Source: Minisyncoccota bacterium | GTDB taxonomy: Bacteria > Patescibacteriota > Minisyncoccia > Moranbacterales > UBA2206 | Reading direction: 5' to 3' | Assembly: GCA_031291955.1 (NCBI GenBank) | Contig: JARLIA010000005.1 | Span: forward strand, 141,224-205,223 | DNA: 64,000 nt | Part shown: positions 1-56,681 of the stretch, one piece after another | How positions within the stretch are numbered: the first letter of the stretch is position 1 | How the letters are laid out: each line of letters starts with the position of its first letter | Made by a program: the position numbers and the translations under genes | Notes under the pieces: generated by a model | The model's input: the letters and a program-made list of their open reading frames with translations, nothing else | Database searches by the model: none | Told to the model about the DNA's origin: nothing

Positions 1-100
1 GACTTTCTATTCCACCGACCTGACGGATAATTTTCAGAAGTTAGGGAGCAAATTTTTCGGGGCTAAGATCGAAGTGAAAAAGGCAAGTTTGAAATAATCG

Positions 101-173
101 TGTCCTTGGGAGGAATCGAACCTCCGACCTTCTGGACCGCAACCAGACGCTCTATCCACTGAGCTACAAGGAC
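101..173 (-). tRNA. tRNA-Arg (anticodon GCG)
   Basis: The reverse complement folds as a cloverleaf: GTCCTTG acceptor, GCTCAGTGGATAGAGC D-arm, anticodon loop TTGCGGT, GGTTCGATTCC T-arm. No CCA is encoded. Confidence 0.8.
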
Positions 174-224
174 ATATTTGGTTTTTACTTTAATAACCTT
201 TACGAACTTTAAAACTGATCTCTG

Positions 225-297
225 TGCGCTTGGCAGGAATCGGACCTGCGGCCTTCTGGACCGGAACCAGACGCTCTATCCACTGAGCTACAAGCGC
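225..297 (-). tRNA. tRNA-Arg (anticodon CCG)
   Basis: The reverse complement reads GCGCTTGTAGCTCAGTGGATAGAGCGTCTGGTTCCGGTCCAG...GGTCCGATTCCTGCCAAGCGCA. Anticodon loop is TTCCGGT. It is a paralog of the neighbouring tRNA-Arg. Confidence 0.8.
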
Positions 298-17861: not shown

Positions 17862-17932
17862 ACGCGGGAATCCCGCCTTCGCAGGCTACTTAGCGGACTT
17901 TGTCCGCCGTAGCCCGCTACTGCGGGCGAAGG

Positions 17933-18019
17933 CGGAGAGACAGGGATTCGAACCCTGGAAGGGATTTCTCCCTTAGCACATTAGCAGTGTGCTGCTTTCA
18001 GCCACTCAGCCATCTCTCC
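17933..18019 (-). tRNA. tRNA-Ser (anticodon GCT)
   Basis: The reverse complement is GGAGAGATGGCTGAGTGGCTGAAAGCAGCACACTGCTAATGTGCTAAGGGAGAAATCCCTTCCAGGGTTCGAATCCCTGTCTCTCCG. Long variable arm. No CCA encoded. Confidence 0.8.
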
Positions 18020-18035
18020 AAAATATTAAATTGTG

Positions 18036-18122
18036 CGGAAGCGGAGGGATTCGAACCCCCGGTGCCGTTTCCGGCACAACAGTTTTCAAGACTGTCGCCT
18101 TCAACCACTCGGCCACGCTTCC
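18036..18122 (-). tRNA. tRNA-Ser (anticodon TGA)
   Basis: The reverse complement is GGAAGCGTGGCCGAGTGGTTGAAGGCGACAGTCTTGAAAACTGTTGTGCCGGAAACGGCACCGGGGGTTCGAATCCCTCCGCTTCCG. Long variable arm. A TTTACA-N17-TATGAT promoter-like sequence lies just upstream on the minus strand. Confidence 0.8.
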
Positions 18123-18943: not shown

Positions 18944-19016
18944 CGGGCTGTAGTATACTGGTAGTACGCGTCCATGGGGTGGATGTAGACTGGGTTCGAT
19001 TCCCAGCAGCCCGACC
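18944..19016 (+). tRNA. tRNA-Pro (anticodon GGG), CCA encoded
   Basis: CGGGCTGTAGTATACTGGTAGTACGCGTCCATGGGGTGGATGTAGACTGGGTTCGATTCCCAGCAGCCCGACCA. Confidence 0.75.
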
Positions 19017-19021
19017 AGAAA

Positions 19022-19092
19022 CGGAGTGTGGTATAGTGGTATTACGCACGATTCGGGTTCGTGTAATCCGGGTTCGATTCCCGGCACTCCGA
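19022..19092 (+). tRNA. tRNA-Pro (anticodon CGG)
   Basis: CGGAGTGTGGTATAGTGGTATTACGCACGATTCGGGTTCGTGTAATCCGGGTTCGATTCCCGGCACTCCGA. Its 3' 25 nt are repeated at 21491-21515. Confidence 0.75.
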
Positions 19093-19355
19093 CAAATAAA
19101 GGCTTTACAGAGCTTTTTTTTGTTGGACTGTGACGATATTGTGACAAAAAATCCAAAATAAAGTGTTCAATGACAAAGTTTTTTCAAATTAAAAATGCCC
19201 ATATAAGCCCTTTTAATTTGAAACTAATCATTTACCGATCGGAATATCTTTGGTTGCCCGACCCATTCTTACAAACAAATTCTACCCAGGTCTAATAAGT
19301 TTGCAAGATATTTATACTTTGGTATAATGTAATCATAAGCATTAATACCAAGTTT

Positions 19356-44164: not shown

Positions 44165-44238
44165 AGCGGGGTAGAGCAGTCTGGTAGCTCGGGTGGCTCA
44201 TAACCACCAGGTCGTGGGTTCGAATCCCACCCCCGCAA
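44165..44238 (+). tRNA. tRNA-Met (anticodon CAT), possible initiator (1:72 A-A mismatch)
   Basis: AGCGGGGTAGAGCAGTCTGGTAGCTCGGGTGGCTCATAACCACC...GTGGGTTCGAATCCCACCCCCGCA. Position 1 and position 72 do not pair. No CCA encoded. Confidence 0.7.
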
Positions 44239-44252
44239 CATAGTTTATTTTT

Positions 44253-44326
44253 GCCAGGGTAGCTCAGCTGGCTAGAGCGCAGCACTCATAACGCTGAGGT
44301 CGAGAGTTCGAGTCTCTCCCCTGGTA
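44253..44326 (+). tRNA. tRNA with CAT anticodon (elongator Met or lysidine-modified Ile2)
   Basis: GCCAGGGTAGCTCAGCTGGCTAGAGCGCAGCACTCATAACGCTGAGGTCGAGAGTTCGAGTCTCTCCCCTGGTA. G1-U72 wobble. No CCA encoded. Confidence 0.7.
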
Positions 44327-44330
44327 CGCG

Positions 44331-44452
44331 AATGAAATTTTCAATTATCAATTTACAATTTTCAATGAACGCATAATTTCTTAATTTTTAATTTTGAAAT
44401 TAAATTATTAAAAATTGTTTAAAAATTAAAAATTGGAAATTCGAAATTTAAT
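44331..44452. repeat. Heptamer-repeat inverted-repeat element, copy B
   Basis: GAAATTTTCAATTATCAATTTACAATTTTCAATG ... AAAATTGTTTAAAAATTAAAAATTGGAAATTCGAAATTTA. The reverse complement of the right arm matches the canonical left arm. Lies between two tRNA genes. Confidence 0.65.
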
Positions 44453-44455
44453 CAT

Positions 44456-44532
44456 GGGGGCGTAGCTCAGTTGGTTAGAGCGACTGCCTGTCACGCAGTA
44501 GGTCGCCGGTTCGAGTCCGGTCGTCCCCGCCA
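44456..44532 (+). tRNA. tRNA-Asp (anticodon GTC), CCA encoded
   Basis: GGGGGCGTAGCTCAGTTGGTTAGAGCGACTGCCTGTCACGCAGTAGGTCGCCGGTTCGAGTCCGGTCGTCCCCGCCA. Followed by an AACCC-TTCAGT-GGGTT hairpin and a T-run (terminator at about 44534-44562). Confidence 0.8.
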
Positions 44533-49963: not shown

Positions 49964-51379
<1,416 letters not shown>

Positions 51380-51395
51380 TAATTGCTTAACTTCG

Positions 51396-51524
51396 GAATT
51401 TCTAATTTTCAATTTCTAATTTCTAAACAATTTCCAATGTTTCAATGACTAAATTTTTTAACGTTTGATAAATTAAAAAATTATTGAATTGTTTGAAAAT
51501 TGAAAATTGAAAATTGAAAATTGG
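51396..51524. repeat. Heptamer-repeat inverted-repeat element, copy D
   Basis: GAATTTCTAATTTTCAATTTCTAATTTCTAAACAATTTCCAATGTTTCAATGACTAAATTTTTT ... TTGAATTGTTTGAAAATTGAAAATTGAAAATTGAAAATTGG. Fills the atpD-atpC spacer. Confidence 0.7.
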
Positions 51525-51947
51525 CTACCAATGTCAGATCTAACCATACAATTCAAAATAGTTACTCCAGAAAGAACTGTTTTCGAAGATACCGTCGATC
51601 AGGCTACTTTGCCAGTGACCGATGGAGAAGTGACGATTTTGCCGAATCACCGGAGCTATATCGCTAGCATGAAAGCCGGCGAGATCATGATTAAGAAAGG
51701 CGGAGAGGAAATTTTGCTTTCCACCTCTGGCGGCTTTTTGGAGTTTGCCGGAAATGAGTTGGTGATTTTGGCCGACACGGCCGAGCGGGCGGAAGAGATT
51801 GATTTGAAACGCGCCGAAGAAGCCAAAGCGCGGGCCGAGAAATTGAAAGGCGAAGCGACAGTGGCGGCGGCTATCCAAAAACACGCGGCCCGGATTCAAG
51901 TGGCGCGGAAACATTATACGAAAAAAGGAATAAGGATGGGAGAATAG
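51507..51947 (+). CDS. atpC: F-type ATP synthase subunit epsilon
   Basis: Beta-sandwich plus helical hairpin (LPVTDGEVTILPNHRSYIASMKAGEIMIK). The probable true start is ATG 51531 (MSDLTIQ). Confidence 0.85.
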   Translation: MKIENWLPMSDLTIQFKIVTPERTVFEDTVDQATLPVTDGEVTILPNHRSYIASMKAGEIMIKKGGEEILLSTSGGFLEFAGNELVILADTAERAEEIDLKRAEEAKARAEKLKGEATVAAAIQKHAARIQVARKHYTKKGIRMGE

Positions 51948-51952
51948 CATTA

Positions 51953-52077
51953 AAATTTCTAATTTTCAATTTCTAATTTCTAAACAATTTCCAATGTTTT
52001 AATGATTAAATTTTCAAACAAAAGCTTAGTTGAAAATTGATGACTTGAAGAATTGTTTAAAAATTAAAAATTATCGA
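51953..52077. repeat. Heptamer-repeat inverted-repeat element, copy E
   Basis: The left arm is identical over about 46 nt to copies A and D (AATTTCTAATTTTCAATTTCTAATTTCTAAACAATTTCCAATGTTT). Right arm GAATTGTTTAAAAATTAAAAATTATCG. Confidence 0.7.
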
Positions 52078-52084
52078 GTCTATT

Positions 52085-52531
52085 ATGAAAACATCATTCA
52101 AATTCAAAGATGTCCACGCTTGCGACGCGGTCGTGCTGACTTGTATCGACTTTCGTTTTTGGAAAGAGACGGTTGAATTTATTGAAAAAGAGCTGGGAAT
52201 CAAGTCTTTCGATTTTCCGTCGCTCCCCGGGGCGGCCAAAGCGATAAATGATTGCTTGGTTGATACGGATGTCGCTATGCAGTGCATTGGTGTGCCATGC
52301 AATCTTCACCACGCCAAAAAAATTGTGATCGTCAACCACCAGGACTGCGGCGCTTACGGCGGATCGGGAAAGTTTAATGGCGACGACGCGGAAGAACAGA
52401 AATTTCACGAGAGCGAACTCGCGAAAGCCAAAGAGAAAATCGCCACCAAGTTTTCGGAAAAAGAATTTGTTTTAATATACGCTAAATTGACCGACGACAA
52501 GGAAAATATTGAGTTCTTGACAGTCGGTTAA
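52085..52531 (+). CDS. Hypothetical protein with beta-carbonic-anhydrase-like CxDxR / HxxCG motifs
   Basis: CIDFR and VNHQDCGAYGG are spaced as in beta-CA zinc ligands, but the protein is only 148 aa and lacks other beta-CA signatures. Assignment is tentative. Confidence 0.25.
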   Translation: MKTSFKFKDVHACDAVVLTCIDFRFWKETVEFIEKELGIKSFDFPSLPGAAKAINDCLVDTDVAMQCIGVPCNLHHAKKIVIVNHQDCGAYGGSGKFNGDDAEEQKFHESELAKAKEKIATKFSEKEFVLIYAKLTDDKENIEFLTVG

Positions 52532-53834: not shown

Positions 53835-56681
53835 ATGGATAAATATAACCCGAAATTCATTGAACCGAAGTGGCAGAAGTTCTGGGAAGAAGTGCGGATT
53901 TATAAGGATTATTCACGAAAAAAGAAGTTTTACGCTTTGGATATGTTTCCGTACCCATCCGGCGCAGGTTTGCATGTCGGTCATCCCAAAGGATACATTG
54001 CCACGGATGTCATTTCCCGTTTCAAGCTGCTGCAAGGCGCGAGCGTCCTTCACTCGATGGGCTGGGACGCTTTCGGTCTGCCGGCCGAGAACTACGCCCT
54101 CAAAAACAAGGTCCATCCCAGAGCGGCAGTTGAAGAAAATATCCAGACTTTCAAACGCCAGCTGGAACTGTTCGGCTTCACTTACGATTGGGATCGCGAA
54201 ATAAACACGACCGATCCGGAATTTTACAAATGGACCCAGTGGATATTTCTTAAAATGTTTGAAAAAGGCTTGGCCTATGAATCATCCGAACCGGTCAATT
54301 GGTGCCCGAGCTGCAAAACTGTTTTGGCCAACGAGGATTTGGAAAAAGGTCTTTGCGAACGGTGTGGCTCGCAGGTGATCCAGAAAAAATTGCGCCAGTG
54401 GGTTTTGAAAATGACTGATTATGCCGATCGGTTGCTTTGGGATTTGGATAATCCCGGTTTGGAATGGGAAGAAATGATTAAGGATCAGCAACGGAATTGG
54501 ATCGGGCGGAGCGAAGGCGTCCAATTCGCGCTGAAAATAAAAAATACGGAGGAAAAAATCGAAGTCTACACGACCCGGATTGACACGGTTTTTGGTATGA
54601 CCTACGCCGTGGTAGCGCCAGAGCATGAAATTATTGAAAAATTAAAAGGCCAGATTGAAAACTATCCGGAAGTCAAAGAATATATTATCCAATCGCAAAC
54701 GAAAACGGAACTTGAGCGGACGGAACTCCAGAAAGAAAAAACCGGCAAGGAACTCAAAGGATTAAAAATTATTAATCCTTTCAACAACGAAGAGCTGCCT
54801 CTTTATGTCGCGGATTACGTCCTTGGTTTTTACGGCACCGGTGCGGTGATGGCTGTCCCGGCGCATGACGAACGGGACTGGGAATTTGCGAAGAAATATA
54901 ATTTGACGATAAAACAAGTGATTGCTCCGTATTTCTATGATAGTGAAAATCCGCCCCGAAGTGATAAGAAAAAAGTAAACAGAACGGTTGTGCAGGGTAT
55001 CGTAAGAAATGGCGATCAGGTCTTACAAATCCGTTGGAAAAAATTCCCATGGAAAACCTTTGTAATTGGCGGAGCAGAAAAAGGTGAAACACTAGAGGAA
55101 GCGGTAAAACGTGAAGTGCAAGAAGAAACTGGCTACAAAAATTTCAAATCAGTTGAGCGTCTTGGCATGGAAATGCGTTCAGAATGGTTTGCTATTCATA
55201 AAGACGAAAATCGATACGCACATATGAACGCGTTTGTTTTAGAATTGGAAAATAAAGAAAAAGATGAGATCAGTGACCAAGAAAAGGCTATTCATGAAGT
55301 GGCCTGGGTATCGTTTGAAGATATCCCCTTTGGTTTTGCTCCAGTAGGAGAGCTACAATATTTTTGGCATGAACTTAATAATTTACCCTCGCCGTTTGTC
55401 CAGGATGGTGTAACGATTAATTCTGGTGAATTTTCAGAATTGAAATCTACGGAGGCCCGCGAAAAAATGACCGCGTGGCTGGAAGAAAATAATTTAGGGA
55501 AAAGAAAAGTAAATTACAAGATGCGCGACTGGGTTTTTTCGCGGCAGAGATATTGGGGCGAGCCGATTCCGATCATCCATTGCGAAAAATGCGGAACTGT
55601 CGCGGTGCCGGAGGATGAGCTGCCGGTGAAATTGCCGGAAGTGGAGAAGTACGAACCGACCGGAACGGGCGAGTCGCCGCTGGCCAATATTTCCGAGTGG
55701 GTGAATGTCAAATGTCCGCAGTGCGGCGGACCGGGAAAACGCGAGACCAACACCATGCCGCAGTGGGCCGGTTCCAGCTGGTATTATTTGCGATACATCG
55801 ACCCGAAAAATAGCGCGGCTCTTATCGATAAGGAAAAGGAAAAAGAATGGATGCCGGTTGATCTCTATATCGGTGGCATCGAACACGCGACGCGCCATCT
55901 TTTGTATGCGCGCTTTTGGCATAAATTTTTGTTTGATCTCGGCGTCGTGTCGACTGACGAGCCGTTCAAAAAACTGGTTCACGTCGGATTGATTTTGGCG
56001 GAAGACGGGCGCAAAATGTCCAAGCGCTGGGGAAATGTTATCAATCCTGACGAAGTAATCGTCCGTTTCGGGGCGGACGCCATGCGGCTTTATGAAATGT
56101 TCATGGGGCCGTTCACGCAAAGCATCGCCTGGAGCACGAACGGAGTGATTGGGATGTATCGGTTTTTAGAAAAAGTGTGGAAATTACGATCAAAGATCAG
56201 TGAACAAGAAGCAGTAAACAATAAAATGCAGAGCTTGGTGCATAAAACCATCAAGAAAGTTACGGAGGACATTGAAGCGATGCGGTTTAATACGGCCATC
56301 AGCCAGCTGATGATTTTGGCCAACGCTTTTGAGAAAGAAACTGAAATCAGTTTGCTTCATTATTCTTGCTTCTTGCTTCTGCTGGGTCCTTTCGCGCCGC
56401 ATATCGCCGAAGAGCTTTGGAACCAATTGGGACACAAAGAAAGTATTTTCAAAGAAAGCTGGCCGGCATATGACCCGGAATTTATAGTGGACGAAGAAAT
56501 CGAATTAGTCGTCCAGATCAATGGCAAAGTGAGGGACCGATTGAAAGTGGCGGCCGATATTTCCGAAGACAAAGCGAAAGAGCTGGCGCTCGGGAGGGAG
56601 AAGATTAAATCATTTATTGACGAAAAAGAAATCAAGAAAATTATTTATGTTAAAGGACGGTTGGTAAGTATCGTTATATAA
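53835..56681 (+). CDS. leuS: Leucyl-tRNA synthetase with a Nudix hydrolase domain inserted in the CP1 editing domain
   Basis: HIGH (HVGHPKGY), KMSKS (KMSKRWGN), and the CP1 editing domain (Thr-rich VYTTRIDT, GTGAVMAVPAHDERD). Between KYNLTIKQVIAP and DGVTINSGEF lies about a 150-aa insert with a perfect Nudix box GGAEKGETLEEAVKREVQEETGY (nt 55068-55136). Confidence 0.9.
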   Translation: MDKYNPKFIEPKWQKFWEEVRIYKDYSRKKKFYALDMFPYPSGAGLHVGHPKGYIATDVISRFKLLQGASVLHSMGWDAFGLPAENYALKNKVHPRAAVEENIQTFKRQLELFGFTYDWDREINTTDPEFYKWTQWIFLKMFEKGLAYESSEPVNWCPSCKTVLANEDLEKGLCERCGSQVIQKKLRQWVLKMTDYADRLLWDLDNPGLEWEEMIKDQQRNWIGRSEGVQFALKIKNTEEKIEVYTTRIDTVFGMTYAVVAPEHEIIEKLKGQIENYPEVKEYIIQSQTKTELERTELQKEKTGKELKGLKIINPFNNEELPLYVADYVLGFYGTGAVMAVPAHDERDWEFAKKYNLTIKQVIAPYFYDSENPPRSDKKKVNRTVVQGIVRNGDQVLQIRWKKFPWKTFVIGGAEKGETLEEAVKREVQEETGYKNFKSVERLGMEMRSEWFAIHKDENRYAHMNAFVLELENKEKDEISDQEKAIHEVAWVSFEDIPFGFAPVGELQYFWHELNNLPSPFVQDGVTINSGEFSELKSTEAREKMTAWLEENNLGKRKVNYKMRDWVFSRQRYWGEPIPIIHCEKCGTVAVPEDELPVKLPEVEKYEPTGTGESPLANISEWVNVKCPQCGGPGKRETNTMPQWAGSSWYYLRYIDPKNSAALIDKEKEKEWMPVDLYIGGIEHATRHLLYARFWHKFLFDLGVVSTDEPFKKLVHVGLILAEDGRKMSKRWGNVINPDEVIVRFGADAMRLYEMFMGPFTQSIAWSTNGVIGMYRFLEKVWKLRSKISEQEAVNNKMQSLVHKTIKKVTEDIEAMRFNTAISQLMILANAFEKETEISLLHYSCFLLLLGPFAPHIAEELWNQLGHKESIFKESWPAYDPEFIVDEEIELVVQINGKVRDRLKVAADISEDKAKELALGREKIKSFIDEKEIKKIIYVKGRLVSIVI

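What the first reader, a model, noticed from the sequence alone, without database searches (positions are those of the whole stretch)
54930..55390. Leucyl-tRNA synthetase carrying a complete Nudix hydrolase domain inside its CP1 editing domain
LeuRS is otherwise canonical (HIGH, KMSKS, Thr-rich editing region, conserved editing Asp in AHDERD). Between the conserved KYNLTIKQVIAP and DGVTINSGEF segments, where E. coli has about 20 residues, there are about 150 residues with a perfect Nudix box GX5EX7REUXEEXGU (GGAEKGETLEEAVKREVQEETGY). A Nudix pyrophosphohydrolase fused into an aaRS editing module suggests hydrolysis of aminoacyl-adenylate, Ap4A or another dinucleotide by-product, or a moonlighting role. 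I do not know of a described LeuRS-Nudix fusion.
Basis: partly seen in the sequence, partly recalled or inferred. Interest (0 to 1): 0.75.

Follow-up and report, generated by a model that had tools for sequence, protein, structure and literature searches.

The report
Nudix hydrolase nested inside leucyl-tRNA synthetase
The essential enzyme that charges tRNA with leucine in this ultra-small (CPR) bacterium really does carry a complete, apparently active Nudix nucleotide-hydrolase domain inside its proofreading domain; the architecture is common in these bacteria, is swapped between close relatives like a cassette, and no description of it turned up in the searchable literature.

Summary
Observation confirmed. 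The ORF at 53835-56681 (+) is an intact bacterial LeuRS (TIGR00396, 1052 bits). A 155-aa Nudix module (aa 365-519, nt 54927-55391; PF00293 E=1e-16; AF2 pLDDT 88.7) replaces a 12-residue surface loop of the CP1 editing domain. It is not an assembly artefact. Dozens of independent Parcubacteria LeuRS carry it, and 68 of 80 sampled members of this Nudix family are embedded in LeuRS. All three catalytic glutamates are kept in 221 of 228 modules.

Beyond the finding:
- The loop is an insertion hot spot. It carries two unrelated Nudix lineages, NTase-like domains, an unknown 110-aa module, or nothing.
- LeuRS cores 93% identical in DNA carry cassettes only 32% identical. In this window the cassette is compositionally foreign (GC3 0.32 vs 0.55). 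This indicates recombinational exchange.
- The same Nudix family occurs at other LeuRS sites (up to three copies), directly upstream of leuS as a separate gene, inside ProRS of probable DPANN archaea, and fused to a degenerate CP1 in gut Mollicutes-like bacteria.

The substrate is unknown. The family matches no curated Nudix subfamily. My best guess is aaRS-derived dinucleoside polyphosphates (Ap4A type). Verdict: new variant of a known kind, interest about 0.7.

The parts
53835..56681 (+). leuS ORF, 948 aa: bacterial-type leucyl-tRNA synthetase carrying the nested Nudix module
   Evidence: ORF. TIGR00396 scores 1052 bits. E=4e-226 to T. thermophilus LeuRS 1h3n. Neighbourhood is syntenic with related genomes.
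53973..53984 (+). HIGH signature (HVGH, aa 47-50)
   Evidence: Motif search.
54495..54926 (+). CP1 editing domain, N-terminal part (aa 221-364)
   Evidence: PF13603 E=6e-61. The CP1 half of the model matches isolated LeuRS CP1 structures with target-normalised TM 0.86-0.91.
54570..54587 (+). Thr-rich editing motif TTRIDT (aa 246-251)
   Evidence: Conserved in 75 of 75 insert-bearing homologs.
54834..54878 (+). Editing-site motif GTGAVMAVPAHDERD (aa 334-348), including the conserved editing Asp
   Evidence: Conserved in 74 of 75 insert-bearing homologs.
54885..55469 (+). Low-GC3 tract (codons ~351-545): the inferred horizontally exchanged segment, made of the Nudix module plus most of the C-terminal CP1 segment
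   Evidence: GC3 is 0.24-0.44 here, 0.55 for the rest of leuS and 0.47-0.57 in neighbouring genes. Codon-usage distance is 0.606 against 0.435 +/- 0.035 for same-size chunks. The tract coincides with the divergent tract in near-identical homolog pairs.
54927..55391 (+). Nudix module (aa 365-519): N-terminal extension, Nudix alpha/beta/alpha fold and C-terminal helices
   Evidence: PF00293 E=1.4e-16. AF2 pLDDT 88.7, pTM 0.84. Foldseek hits Nudix hydrolases with probability 1.00.
55068..55136 (+). Nudix box GGAEKGETLEEAVKREVQEETGY (aa 412-434); the metal-binding glutamates are E427, E430 and E431
   Evidence: The three Glu are invariant in 66 of 66 close homologs and kept in 221 of 228 family modules.
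55185..55214 (+). X-loop region downstream of the box (W451 F452 ... K456 .. N459 R460): family-specific aromatic pair and K..NR motif, candidate substrate-specificity determinants
   Evidence: Across the family, +17 is F/Y in 211 of 228, +18 is Y/F in 215 of 228, K+22 in 225 of 228, N+25 in 209, R+26 in 200. The X-loop concept is from PMC5389931.
55392..55514 (+). CP1 editing domain, C-terminal part (aa 520-560), returning to the catalytic core at RDWVFSRQRYWG
   Evidence: Alignment to Tt LeuRS 376 onward.
56013..56027 (+). KMSKS signature (KMSKR, aa 727-731)

Best explanation
This is the organism's housekeeping LeuRS, made bifunctional by a nested accessory enzyme.

Shown:
- An intact LeuRS with complete synthetic and editing motifs has, in a surface loop of CP1 about 20 residues after the editing Asp, a complete Nudix pyrophosphohydrolase module.
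- The module belongs to a distinct family whose members are mostly embedded in LeuRS of Parcubacteria.
- The catalytic glutamates are under strong purifying selection.
- The module is predicted to pack against CP1 as a defined two-domain unit.
- The module, together with the last ~40 residues of CP1, is exchanged between lineages by recombination. In this window it came from a lower-GC donor.
- The same family is also found as a gene abutting leuS, at other LeuRS sites, and in ProRS of probable DPANN archaea.

Inferred:
- The Nudix domain is catalytically active and works alongside the synthetase, not as part of the editing reaction.
- Its most likely substrates are dinucleoside polyphosphates (Ap4A, Ap3A and relatives) that aaRSs make when the enzyme-bound aminoacyl-adenylate is attacked by ATP or ADP.
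- Tethering the hydrolase to the synthetase would destroy these by-products at source and return ATP, ADP and AMP to the pool. That would help organisms believed unable to make nucleotides de novo.
- LeuRS aminoacylation and editing proceed as usual.
For: Architecture and integrity. Fold: pLDDT 88.7 for the module. The CP1+Nudix unit has pLDDT 88.3 and pTM 0.83, with the N-terminal connector at about 93. The CP1 half superposes on solved CP1 domains.

Catalytic conservation: E427, E430, E431 and G412 are invariant in 66 of 66. All three Glu are kept in 221 of 228 modules, although mean pairwise identity among the close in-CP1 inserts is only 34%.

Family is aaRS-associated: 68 of 80 loci sampled from metagenomes are LeuRS-embedded. 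Local architecture mapping of 149 representatives shows sites before CP1, in CP1, in tandem and in the C-terminal catalytic half. Free-standing members P0184, P0172 and P0194 lie 2-10 nt upstream of leuS, two of them next to... specifically P0194 next to an insert-less leuS. P0199 lies near leuS together with another Nudix 4 nt upstream of it. The same family is inserted in ProRS (183 bits). A second, unrelated Nudix lineage (N2) occupies the same loop.

Substrate hints: the X-loop has an aromatic F/Y-Y/F pair at +17/+18, where ApnA hydrolases have Tyr, and lacks the ADP-ribose Pro and the NADH SQPWPFPQS markers. Aquifex Ap4A hydrolase 3i7u is among the best sequence-profile and fold matches. 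Weak best curated hits are RppH (an ApnA/RNA pyrophosphohydrolase) and NudC. The modules are acidic, with mean net charge -3 to -6, which favours a small-molecule substrate over an RNA substrate.

Cassette exchange.
Against: No substrate was tested. All matches to characterised Nudix enzymes are generic: 20-24% identity and far below every NCBIfam cutoff. The window's own X-loop has Trp-Phe, not Tyr. LeuRS is historically a poor Ap4A producer compared with LysRS or PheRS (own knowledge), so why LeuRS is the favoured host is unexplained. Close relatives do without the insert or carry a non-Nudix domain, so the activity is dispensable or replaceable. None of 12 free-standing family genes in the metagenome sample has an aaRS within the flanks fetched, which were up to about 4 kb per side and much shorter for some short contigs. 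I could not measure where the Nudix active site lies relative to the editing or synthetic sites, because no coordinates were available.
Confidence: 0.4

Rival explanations
1. Hitch-hiking housecleaning enzyme. The Nudix is a generic nucleotide-pool sanitiser or salvage enzyme with no mechanistic link to aminoacylation. It has lodged in permissive loops of a highly conserved, constitutively expressed essential gene, and it spreads because recombination between conserved leuS flanks carries it along.
For: Presence, absence and type vary among near-identical LeuRS cores. The insert occurs at several different sites, so no precise geometry is required. Most free-standing members sampled have unrelated neighbours. 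L013 places Nudix genes with TatD and an HD/YfbR-like nucleotidase, a nucleotide-salvage flavour. The domain is acidic.
Against: 68 of 80 family members are inside LeuRS. Insertion has happened repeatedly and independently into LeuRS at three or more sites and into ProRS. A second Nudix lineage sits at the very same loop. Several free-standing members are translationally abutted to leuS. Confident domain packing (pTM 0.83) is more than a neutral passenger would need.
Confidence: 0.25
2. tRNA- or RNA-end-directed Nudix. Tethered to tRNA-binding domains (CP1, or the ProRS anticodon-binding domain), the hydrolase removes a pyrophosphate-linked group from tRNA ends. Candidates are a 5'-triphosphate, an NAD/Np4A-type cap, or a 3'-pyrophosphate or nucleotide adduct placed on the CCA end by toxins.
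For: The weak best curated matches are RNA pyrophosphohydrolase RppH and NudC, both RNA-decapping enzymes. The host domains bind tRNA. The standalone forms retain a CP1-like domain (P0001 family) or a stretch aligning to the ProRS anticodon-binding region (P0211; possibly a truncated gene call) next to the Nudix.
Against: The modules are acidic, with no sign of a basic RNA-binding surface at the level of net charge. The CP1 remnant of the standalone family has lost the residues that form the A76/editing pocket (TTRxDT, GTG, AHD). Insertion sites within LeuRS are diverse. All similarity scores are far below family cutoffs.
Confidence: 0.15
3. Conflict or immunity cassette. The CP1 loop is a slot where populations swap accessory nucleotide-acting enzymes (Nudix lineages, NTase-like domains, others). 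These would counter a variable threat aimed at LeuRS or tRNALeu, such as adenylate-mimic antibiotics or nucleotide-transferring toxins from hosts, competitors or phages.
For: The turnover pattern is extreme. Cores are 93% identical in DNA while cassettes are 32% identical or of a different fold. The alternative inserts have NTase-fold signatures (PF14907, PF10706). The cassette in the window has foreign composition. NCBIfam lists an IleRS with a GNAT domain (NF040702) as a precedent for an aaRS carrying a small-molecule-modifying domain.
Against: There is no match to known defence systems beyond a weak generic Nudix hit. No relatives were found in viral contigs. No toxin, antitoxin or mobile-element genes flank leuS in the window. 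No flanking repeats were found. Turnover can also arise from ordinary recombination of a dispensable segment.
Confidence: 0.15
4. Non-catalytic structural or regulatory domain. The Nudix fold would serve only as a nucleotide sensor or as an extra tRNA- or protein-binding surface.
For: Non-enzymatic Nudix domains exist (PMC5389931). A sub-clade has a variant box (E7 to Q, R15 to A/M/T).
Against: The three metal-binding glutamates are kept in 221 of 228 modules, including the variant-box clade.
Confidence: 0.04
5. Assembly chimera or mis-join that created the apparent fusion.
For: The window comes from a metagenome-assembled genome. Some variant alleles sit on short contigs.
Against: The identical protein is on a 274-kb contig. 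Homologs with the same architecture are on contigs of 123-970 kb from independent projects. The reading frame is continuous. The flanks of variant alleles differ by synonymous changes on both sides (93% nt identity), so they are separate lineages and not joins.
Confidence: 0.01

Closest known systems
Canonical bacterial LeuRS (T. thermophilus 1H3N/2BYT, E. coli 4AQ7/4ARI)
   Same: Same domain order, HIGH/KMSKS signatures, CP1 editing domain with Thr-rich and GTG...AHDxRD motifs. E=4e-226. The CP1 fold superposes.
   Different: A 155-aa Nudix domain replaces a 12-16-residue surface loop of CP1. No solved LeuRS has a domain there. A 2026 survey of domain insertions records the LeuRS editing domain only as an inserted module, never as a host (PMC13114784).
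Nudix ApnA hydrolases / RppH (E. coli NudH, Aquifex Ap4A hydrolase 3I7U)
   Same: Nudix fold and box. Aromatic residue about 17 aa downstream of the box. Among the best profile and fold matches.
   Different: About 21% identity and 23-40 bits against cutoffs of 116-259. Has its own N-terminal extension and a K..NR motif. Usually nested in an aaRS. Activity untested.
NudC (NAD(H) diphosphatase / NAD-RNA decapping)
   Same: Best single NCBIfam hit (32 bits) and a high-ranking Foldseek match.
   Different: Lacks SQPWPFPQS and the N-terminal zinc-binding domain. Score is far below the cutoff of 158.
aaRSs carrying accessory enzyme domains, e.g. NCBIfam NF040702 'isoleucine--tRNA ligase, N-acetyltransferase domain-containing'
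   Same: A class Ia synthetase fused to a small-molecule-modifying enzyme domain. The family name appears.
   Different: Different accessory fold and host. I did not examine that family's architecture. Nothing indicates cassette-like exchange there.
Free-standing aaRS editing-domain homologs (AlaX, YbaK/ProX, ThrRS-ed; own knowledge)
   Same: The ~280-aa P0001-like proteins are free-standing derivatives of an aaRS editing domain.
   Different: They derive from LeuRS CP1. I know of no natural free-standing CP1 (own knowledge). They have lost the editing residues and carry a Nudix domain with an intact box.
Bifunctional NadM-Nudix (NMN adenylyltransferase + ADP-ribose pyrophosphatase; own knowledge, NADM_SYNY3 is mentioned in PMC5389931)
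   Same: A Nudix hydrolase fused to an ATP-consuming adenylyl-transfer enzyme.
   Different: That is an end-to-end fusion, has the ADP-ribose-type X-loop, and is not nested within another domain.

Membership tests
Bacterial leucyl-tRNA synthetase (TIGR00396 leuS_bact) | Whole-protein score above the curated cutoff | tested here: met
   1052 bits against a cutoff of 548.4.
Bacterial leucyl-tRNA synthetase (TIGR00396 leuS_bact) | Class I signatures HIGH and KMSKS | tested here: met
   HVGH at aa 47-50 and KMSKR at aa 727-731.
Bacterial leucyl-tRNA synthetase (TIGR00396 leuS_bact) | CP1 editing domain with Thr-rich motif and conserved editing Asp | tested here: met
   PF13603 E=6e-61. TTRIDT and GTGAVMAVPAHDERD are present. 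The fold matches solved CP1 domains with TM 0.86-0.91.
Bacterial leucyl-tRNA synthetase (TIGR00396 leuS_bact) | Leucylation of tRNALeu and hydrolysis of mischarged tRNA | not testable with these tools
   Needs biochemistry.
Nudix hydrolase superfamily (PF00293) | Pfam score above the gathering threshold | tested here: met
   55.5 bits in the full protein and 61.1 bits for the insert alone, against 21.1.
Nudix hydrolase superfamily (PF00293) | Nudix box GX5EX7REUXEEXGU with the metal-binding glutamates | tested here: met
   aa 412-434. Only the final U is non-canonical (Tyr). E427, E430 and E431 are present and conserved.
Nudix hydrolase superfamily (PF00293) | Alpha/beta/alpha sandwich fold | tested here: met
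   AF2 pLDDT 88.7. Foldseek probability 1.00 to many Nudix structures.
Nudix hydrolase superfamily (PF00293) | Metal-dependent pyrophosphohydrolase activity | not testable with these tools
   Needs an enzyme assay.
Dinucleoside polyphosphate (ApnA) hydrolase subfamily / RppH | Tyr about 17 residues downstream of the Nudix box (Dunn 1999, as summarised in PMC5389931) | tested here: inconclusive
   In the family, +17 is F in 166 and Y in 45, and +18 is Y in 119 and F in 96, of 228. The window has W451-F452.
Dinucleoside polyphosphate (ApnA) hydrolase subfamily / RppH | Score above the curated equivalog cutoff (NF001934-NF001938) | tested here: not met
   17-40 bits against cutoffs of 116-259.
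NADH/NAD diphosphatase NudC | SQPWPFPxS motif downstream of the box; NF001299 cutoff | tested here: not met
   The motif is absent. 27-32 bits against a cutoff of 158.
ADP-ribose diphosphatase | Conserved Pro in the X-loop about 16 residues downstream | tested here: not met
   Positions +15/+16 are S/A and E/H/K. TIGR00052 scores 17 bits against 79.6.
MutT 8-oxo-dGTPase | TIGR00586 / NF008044 cutoff | tested here: not met
   18-21 bits against 97.9 and 148.
Intein or other self-splicing / homing insertion | Hint/intein or homing-endonuclease domain; flanking repeats | tested here: not met
   No such Pfam hit in the ORF. Only short, chance-level repeats at the boundaries.
Known anti-phage defence systems (PADLOC) | Significant match to a defence-system protein model | tested here: not met
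   Only a 19-bit hit to the candidate PDC-S07. No viral relatives.

The most novel reading that the evidence does not exclude
The CP1 loop of Parcubacteria LeuRS is a recombinational cassette slot inside an essential gene, functioning like a miniature variable island. Populations shuffle alternative nucleotide-acting enzymes there: at least two Nudix lineages, NTase-fold domains and unknown modules. The aaRS-associated Nudix family has moved between CPR bacteria, DPANN archaea and gut Mollicutes-like bacteria. Under this reading the cassettes are weapons or shields in a conflict centred on tRNA charging. For example, they might remove nucleotide or pyrophosphate adducts from tRNA 3' ends, or destroy adenylate-mimic inhibitors. 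They would not be housekeeping enzymes.
Probability: 0.15. Interest if true: 0.9.

Novelty: new variant of a known kind. Interest (0 to 1): 0.7.

Why it matters
Aminoacyl-tRNA synthetases are among the most conserved enzymes known. Their appended domains in eukaryotes have revealed many non-translational functions. This case has four unusual features. First, a bacterial synthetase carries a second, apparently active enzyme nested inside its proofreading domain, which is a double nesting, because CP1 is itself an insertion. Second, the association recurs as a neighbouring gene, at several insertion sites and in a second synthetase. That is classic Rosetta-stone evidence for a functional link between a Nudix hydrolase and tRNA charging. 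Third, the segment turns over between near-identical genes, which is rarely seen inside an essential enzyme. Fourth, it is distributed across three lineages of genome-reduced, host-dependent microbes. If the substrate is Ap4A-type by-products, this would be a direct physical link between alarmone synthesis by aaRSs and alarmone removal. If the substrate is something on tRNA, it would point to a new tRNA repair or defence activity. Either way the module is small, folds confidently and is easy to test. The CP1 loop is also shown to be a naturally permissive site for engineering domain insertions into LeuRS.

Tried and rejected
1. Assembly chimera. Rejected because of many independent long contigs, a continuous frame, and synonymous divergence on both flanks.
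2. Intein or homing element. No Hint or endonuclease domain and no meaningful flanking repeats.
3. Assignment to a characterised Nudix subfamily (NudC, ADPRase, MutT, RppH, NudI). All fall far below curated cutoffs, and the X-loop markers for NADH and ADP-ribose are absent.
4. Universal operon linkage of free-standing family members with leuS. Not supported. Three lie directly upstream of leuS and two near an aaRS, but P0253 and 12 of 12 sampled free-standing loci have no aaRS within the fetched flanks.
5. Phage carriage of the family. None found in IMG/VR with two motif patterns.
6. Known defence system. Only a weak generic hit.
7. The idea that the 145-aa Nudix abutting leuS in L013 belongs to the N2 lineage. 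The similarity is only generic (31% identity, E=1e-7).
8. RNA-binding surface inferred from charge. The modules are acidic.
9. Profile-based scans of genome and metagenome collections with broad alignments failed for lack of a conserved 7-10-column stretch. I used a single protein and a 4-sequence alignment instead.
10. Measuring the distance between the Nudix and editing active sites. Not possible, because model coordinates are not exposed. Only pLDDT and pTM were available.


Full report
OBSERVATION. Window 53835-56681 (+) is one uninterrupted ORF of 948 aa. Pfam finds class I catalytic domains, the LeuRS editing domain (PF13603, aa 220-372, E=6e-61), the anticodon-binding domain, and NUDIX PF00293 at aa 383-498 (E=7.9e-15). 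The excised segment 54930-55390 alone gives E=1.4e-16. NCBIfam TIGR00396 (leuS_bact) scores 1052 bits against a cutoff of 548. Against T. thermophilus LeuRS (1h3n), residues 1-364 align to Tt 1-363 and residues 520-725 to Tt 376-582. So about 155 residues (aa 365-519, nt 54927-55391) replace a 12-residue loop of CP1. HIGH, KMSKS, the Thr-rich motif and GTGAVMAVPAHDERD are all present. The Nudix box GGAEKGETLEEAVKREVQEETGY (aa 412-434) is canonical except that the last hydrophobic position is Tyr. It is the only such box in the window.

NOT AN ARTEFACT, AND NOT UNIQUE. A 100% identical protein (MDR3558991.1) is deposited as 'class I tRNA ligase family protein', from a Candidatus Pacebacteria/Paceibacterota MAG on a 274-kb contig. 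Of the 120 closest LeuRS homologs, all from Moranbacteria, Parcubacteria or Patescibacteria assemblies of many projects, about 65 carry PF00293. The spacing between PAHDxRD and RDWxFSRQRYWG falls into classes: 74-80 aa (no insert), 90-125 (small inserts), 148-182, and 205-232 (Nudix). leuS sits in a conserved neighbourhood (ATP synthase ... leuS, NTP_transferase, CofD) shared with related genomes. That is consistent with it being the housekeeping copy.

THE DOMAIN LOOKS ACTIVE. In 66 close homologs the inserts average only about 34% pairwise identity, yet G412, E427, E430 and E431 are invariant. Across 228 modules of the family, 221 keep all three metal-binding glutamates. AlphaFold2 models the module as a Nudix fold (pLDDT 88.7, pTM 0.84). 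The whole CP1+Nudix unit models at pLDDT 88.3 and pTM 0.83, with the N-terminal connector at about 93. This suggests a defined packing rather than a floppy tether. The CP1 half superposes on solved CP1 domains (target-normalised TM 0.86-0.91), and no solved LeuRS covers the other half. LeuRS synthetic and editing motifs are as intact in insert-bearing homologs (KMSKS and Thr-rich 75 of 75; editing-Asp motif 74 of 75) as in insert-less ones.

WHICH NUDIX? None that is characterised. Profile search of the PDB and Foldseek give generic matches at about 20-24% identity: uncharacterised MutT/nudix 2azw and 3smd, Aquifex Ap4A hydrolase 3i7u, NudI/YfaO, NudC and MTH1. NCBIfam best hits (NudC 32 bits, RppH 17-40 bits) are far below their cutoffs. 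Srouji et al. 2017 (PMC5389931) summarise specificity markers in the 'X-loop' about 17 residues after the box: Tyr for ApnA hydrolases, Pro for ADP-ribose diphosphatases, SQPWPFPQS for NADH diphosphatases. This family has a conserved aromatic pair (+17 is F in 166 and Y in 45; +18 is Y in 119 and F in 96, of 228). It has no Pro and no SQPWPFPQS. It also has its own near-invariant K(+22)..N(+25)R(+26) motif. The window itself has W451-F452. The modules are acidic, with mean net charge -3 to -6.

THE LOOP IS AN INSERTION HOT SPOT WITH SWAPPABLE CASSETTES. At the same loop other homologs carry different things:
- A second, unrelated Nudix lineage, N2. It scores 15-18 bits against the profile of the main lineage, versus 170-200 for members. 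Its weak best hits are MutT/NudI-type.
- About 150-aa NTase-fold inserts, with weak PF14907 and PF10706 hits.
- A 110-aa module with no family match.
- Assorted small inserts.

On a neighbour-joining tree of the LeuRS core these states are interleaved. Over 1711 pairs, core identity and insert identity are uncorrelated (r=0.06). P0017 and P0039 are 96% identical in the core but 32% identical in the insert. In 20-residue windows, identity is 95-100% in both flanks and 15-55% across the insert. The same step profile appears for Nudix vs Nudix, Nudix vs small insert, Nudix vs NTase and U110 vs small insert pairs. At the DNA level the flanks of L004 and L007 are about 93% identical, with scattered synonymous differences on both sides. 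The segment from just after 'LPIK' to 'KVNYKMRDW' is unalignable. This rules out a chimeric join and points to homologous recombination with crossovers in the most conserved motifs. The window carries its own trace of this. Codons ~351-545 have GC3 0.24-0.44, against 0.55 for the rest of leuS and 0.47-0.57 for neighbouring genes. The insert's codon usage lies about 5 SD outside same-size chunks of the gene. No flanking repeats, intein or endonuclease signatures were found.

AN aaRS-ASSOCIATED NUDIX FAMILY. An exhaustive profile search of 1.84 billion representatives gave 176 proteins at E<=1e-30 and 598 at E<=1e-10. Mapping LeuRS pieces onto the top 149 shows the module in several places:
- In CP1 (the majority).
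- Between the N-terminal catalytic half and CP1, sometimes two in tandem.
- In tandem within CP1.
- In the C-terminal catalytic half.

This gives LeuRS with up to three Nudix domains. In such proteins the copies are only 23-43% identical. In the five proteins carrying two modules ahead of CP1, a canonical box is always paired with a variant one: 'GQT...AxxE' in four and 'NDT...AQKE' in one. These are therefore distinct subfamilies and not recent duplicates.

Free-standing 160-190-aa members also exist. P0184 ends 2 nt before a Nudix-bearing leuS. P0172 ends 10 nt before leuS. P0194 ends 3 nt before an insert-less leuS. P0199 lies 2.4 kb upstream of an insert-less leuS that has yet another Nudix gene 4 nt upstream, with TatD, an HD/YfbR-like gene and MetRS nearby. 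P0220 lies two genes upstream of a ProRS that has the same Nudix family inserted between its anticodon-binding and C-terminal domains (183 bits). Five such ProRS clusters exist, and their nearest named relatives are Nanoarchaeota and Woesearchaeota, that is, DPANN archaea.

The linkage is not universal. P0253 has no aaRS nearby. In a motif-seeded sample of 80 metagenome loci, 68 were LeuRS-embedded (12 with 2-3 copies) and 12 were free-standing. None of those 12 had leuS or proS within the fetched flanks. On a tree of 228 modules, the standalone, pre-CP1 and in-CP1 contexts are intermixed, which implies repeated transitions.

A further form is a conserved family of ~280-aa proteins (P0001 and seven other representatives) in gut Mollicutes-like Bacilli (Acholeplasmataceae, Ca. 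Pelethosoma). These consist of a degenerate CP1 with the Nudix at the same junction motif (KQVIAPYFY). The editing residues are lost: TTRxDT becomes xELIYGA, GTG is lost, and AHD becomes AH[I/N/E]. The Nudix box is intact in all but one of the eight.

INTERPRETATION. The following are shown:
- The architecture.
- Its wide occurrence.
- Purifying selection on the catalytic residues.
- Cassette exchange.
- Repeated association of one Nudix family with aaRS genes, by fusion at several sites and by adjacency.

This Rosetta-stone pattern argues for a functional link to aminoacylation in general (LeuRS, and ProRS in DPANN) rather than to the editing reaction in particular. My best-supported mechanism, at about 0.4, is an active pyrophosphohydrolase that removes a nucleotide by-product of aaRS chemistry. 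The most likely substrates are dinucleoside polyphosphates, formed when the aminoacyl-adenylate reacts with ATP or ADP. Hydrolysis would recycle adenine nucleotides in organisms regarded as unable to synthesise them (own knowledge of CPR and DPANN physiology). The X-loop aromatic residue, the Ap4A-hydrolase and RppH resemblances and the acidic surface fit this reading, but all are weak evidence.

The rivals are a hitch-hiking housecleaning enzyme (0.25), a tRNA/RNA-end-directed activity (0.15), a conflict or immunity cassette (0.15) and a non-catalytic role (0.04). The striking turnover of the cassette, and its replacement by NTase-fold domains, is not explained by the housekeeping models. That keeps the conflict reading alive, although I found no defence-system or phage signal.

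NOVELTY. Eight full-text searches found no description of a Nudix domain in, or genetically linked to, LeuRS or any aaRS. A 2026 census of domain insertions lists the LeuRS editing domain as an insertion-exclusive module with 'zero instances of host function' (PMC13114784). The sequences themselves have been public since at least the 2015 groundwater Moranbacteria genomes and carry automatic Pfam annotation. So this is an undescribed variant of known parts, not a new kind of system: new variant of a known kind, interest about 0.7.

Noticed in passing
Same CP1 loop in homologs P0073, P0078, P0063, P0105 (equivalent to window aa ~365-519): About 150-170-aa non-Nudix inserts with NTase-fold signatures (G[GS]...D[IL]D). 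Weak hits to PF14907 'uncharacterised nucleotidyltransferase' (E=5e-6) and PF10706 aminoglycoside-2''-adenylyltransferase. Their LeuRS cores are close to Nudix-bearing ones; for example P0063 vs P0024 has 95-100% identical flanks.
   Followed up: partly
Same CP1 loop in homologs P0062, P0074, P0077, P0084; also P0100: A shared ~110-aa module (NNFIG..WYIHSEG..KILFH) with no Pfam or PADLOC match. P0100 has a different ~70-aa insert with a weak Peptidase_M14 hit (E=0.0017). Identity unknown.
   Followed up: partly
Same CP1 loop in homologs P0042, P0047, P0048, P0058, P0076, P0085, P0114: A second, shorter Nudix lineage (N2, 141 aa, weakly MutT/NudI-like), unrelated to the main family beyond superfamily level. 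This is an independent acquisition of a Nudix at the same site.
   Followed up: yes
Representatives P0122-P0130, P0082, P0119, P0134, P0167, P0140; loci L036, L038, L052, L058, L059, L066, L083, L084, L095: LeuRS proteins of 1100-1300 aa with two or three divergent Nudix modules (before CP1, in CP1, in tandem, or in the C-terminal catalytic half). In proteins with two modules ahead of CP1, a canonical box is paired with a variant box (mostly 'GQT...AxxE').
   Followed up: partly
Representatives P0136, P0146, P0151, P0183, P0192, P0196, P0216, P0261, P0262, P0268 (site before CP1) and P0142, P0150, P0157, P0159, P0160, P0205, P0213 (C-terminal catalytic half): Many CPR LeuRS have further unlabelled insertions of ~130-350 aa at other positions. 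CPR LeuRS appears unusually rich in domain insertions.
   Followed up: no
L019:2762-4693 (ProRS, 643 aa) and P0274, P0275, P0247, P0276: Archaeal-type ProRS, probably from DPANN archaea, with the same Nudix family inserted between the anticodon-binding and C-terminal domains. A free-standing family member (P0220) and a P-loop kinase-like gene lie just upstream.
   Followed up: partly
P0356 (716 aa) and P0373 (722 aa), ProRS homologs: ProRS relatives carrying a PF03483 (B3_4, PheRS-beta editing-type) domain. This is another unusual aaRS domain combination in the same lineage.
   Followed up: no
L001-L003, L014-L018 (P0001 family, e.g. L001:6001-6846): Free-standing ~280-aa 'degenerate CP1 + Nudix' proteins in gut Acholeplasmataceae-like Bacilli. 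They have their own conserved motif (PELIYGA) in place of the Thr-rich editing motif. Neighbours include SMC, an HD-domain protein, an ABC-F protein and peptide deformylase. Whether the LeuRS of these genomes retains CP1 was not checked.
   Followed up: partly
P0211, P0237, P0182 (230-250 aa): Proteins aligning to the ProRS anticodon-binding domain plus Nudix (43-60% identity to ProRS aa ~292-551). They may be standalone analogues of the CP1-Nudix proteins, or truncated gene calls.
   Followed up: partly
Pairwise LeuRS comparisons, equivalent to window aa ~220-260 and ~800-900: Besides the CP1 loop, two further short patches show sharp identity drops between otherwise near-identical LeuRS: the start of CP1, and a segment in the anticodon-binding/C-terminal region. 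The window also has a GC3 dip at codons ~251-311.
   Followed up: no
L009:3932-4327: A PDDEXK_3 nuclease-family gene is inserted between leuS and CofD in one relative. It is absent from the syntenic loci L004 and the window.
   Followed up: no
L013:1482-10389: A cluster of MetRS, unknown gene, TatD, Nudix (P0199), two small ORFs, HD/YfbR-like nucleotidase, unknown gene, Nudix (145 aa), leuS. Translation and nucleotide-housecleaning genes are interleaved.
   Followed up: partly
window 100-297, 17931-18122, 18944-19093, 44165-44532: tRNA genes occur as adjacent pairs (Arg-Arg, Ser-Ser, Pro-Pro, Met-Met plus Asp). No tRNA-Leu gene lies in the window.
   Followed up: no
window 51200-51650 and 51800-52250: Two short stretches of markedly low GC (0.30-0.36, against a window mean of 0.46), downstream of the ATP synthase beta gene. 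Not examined.
   Followed up: no
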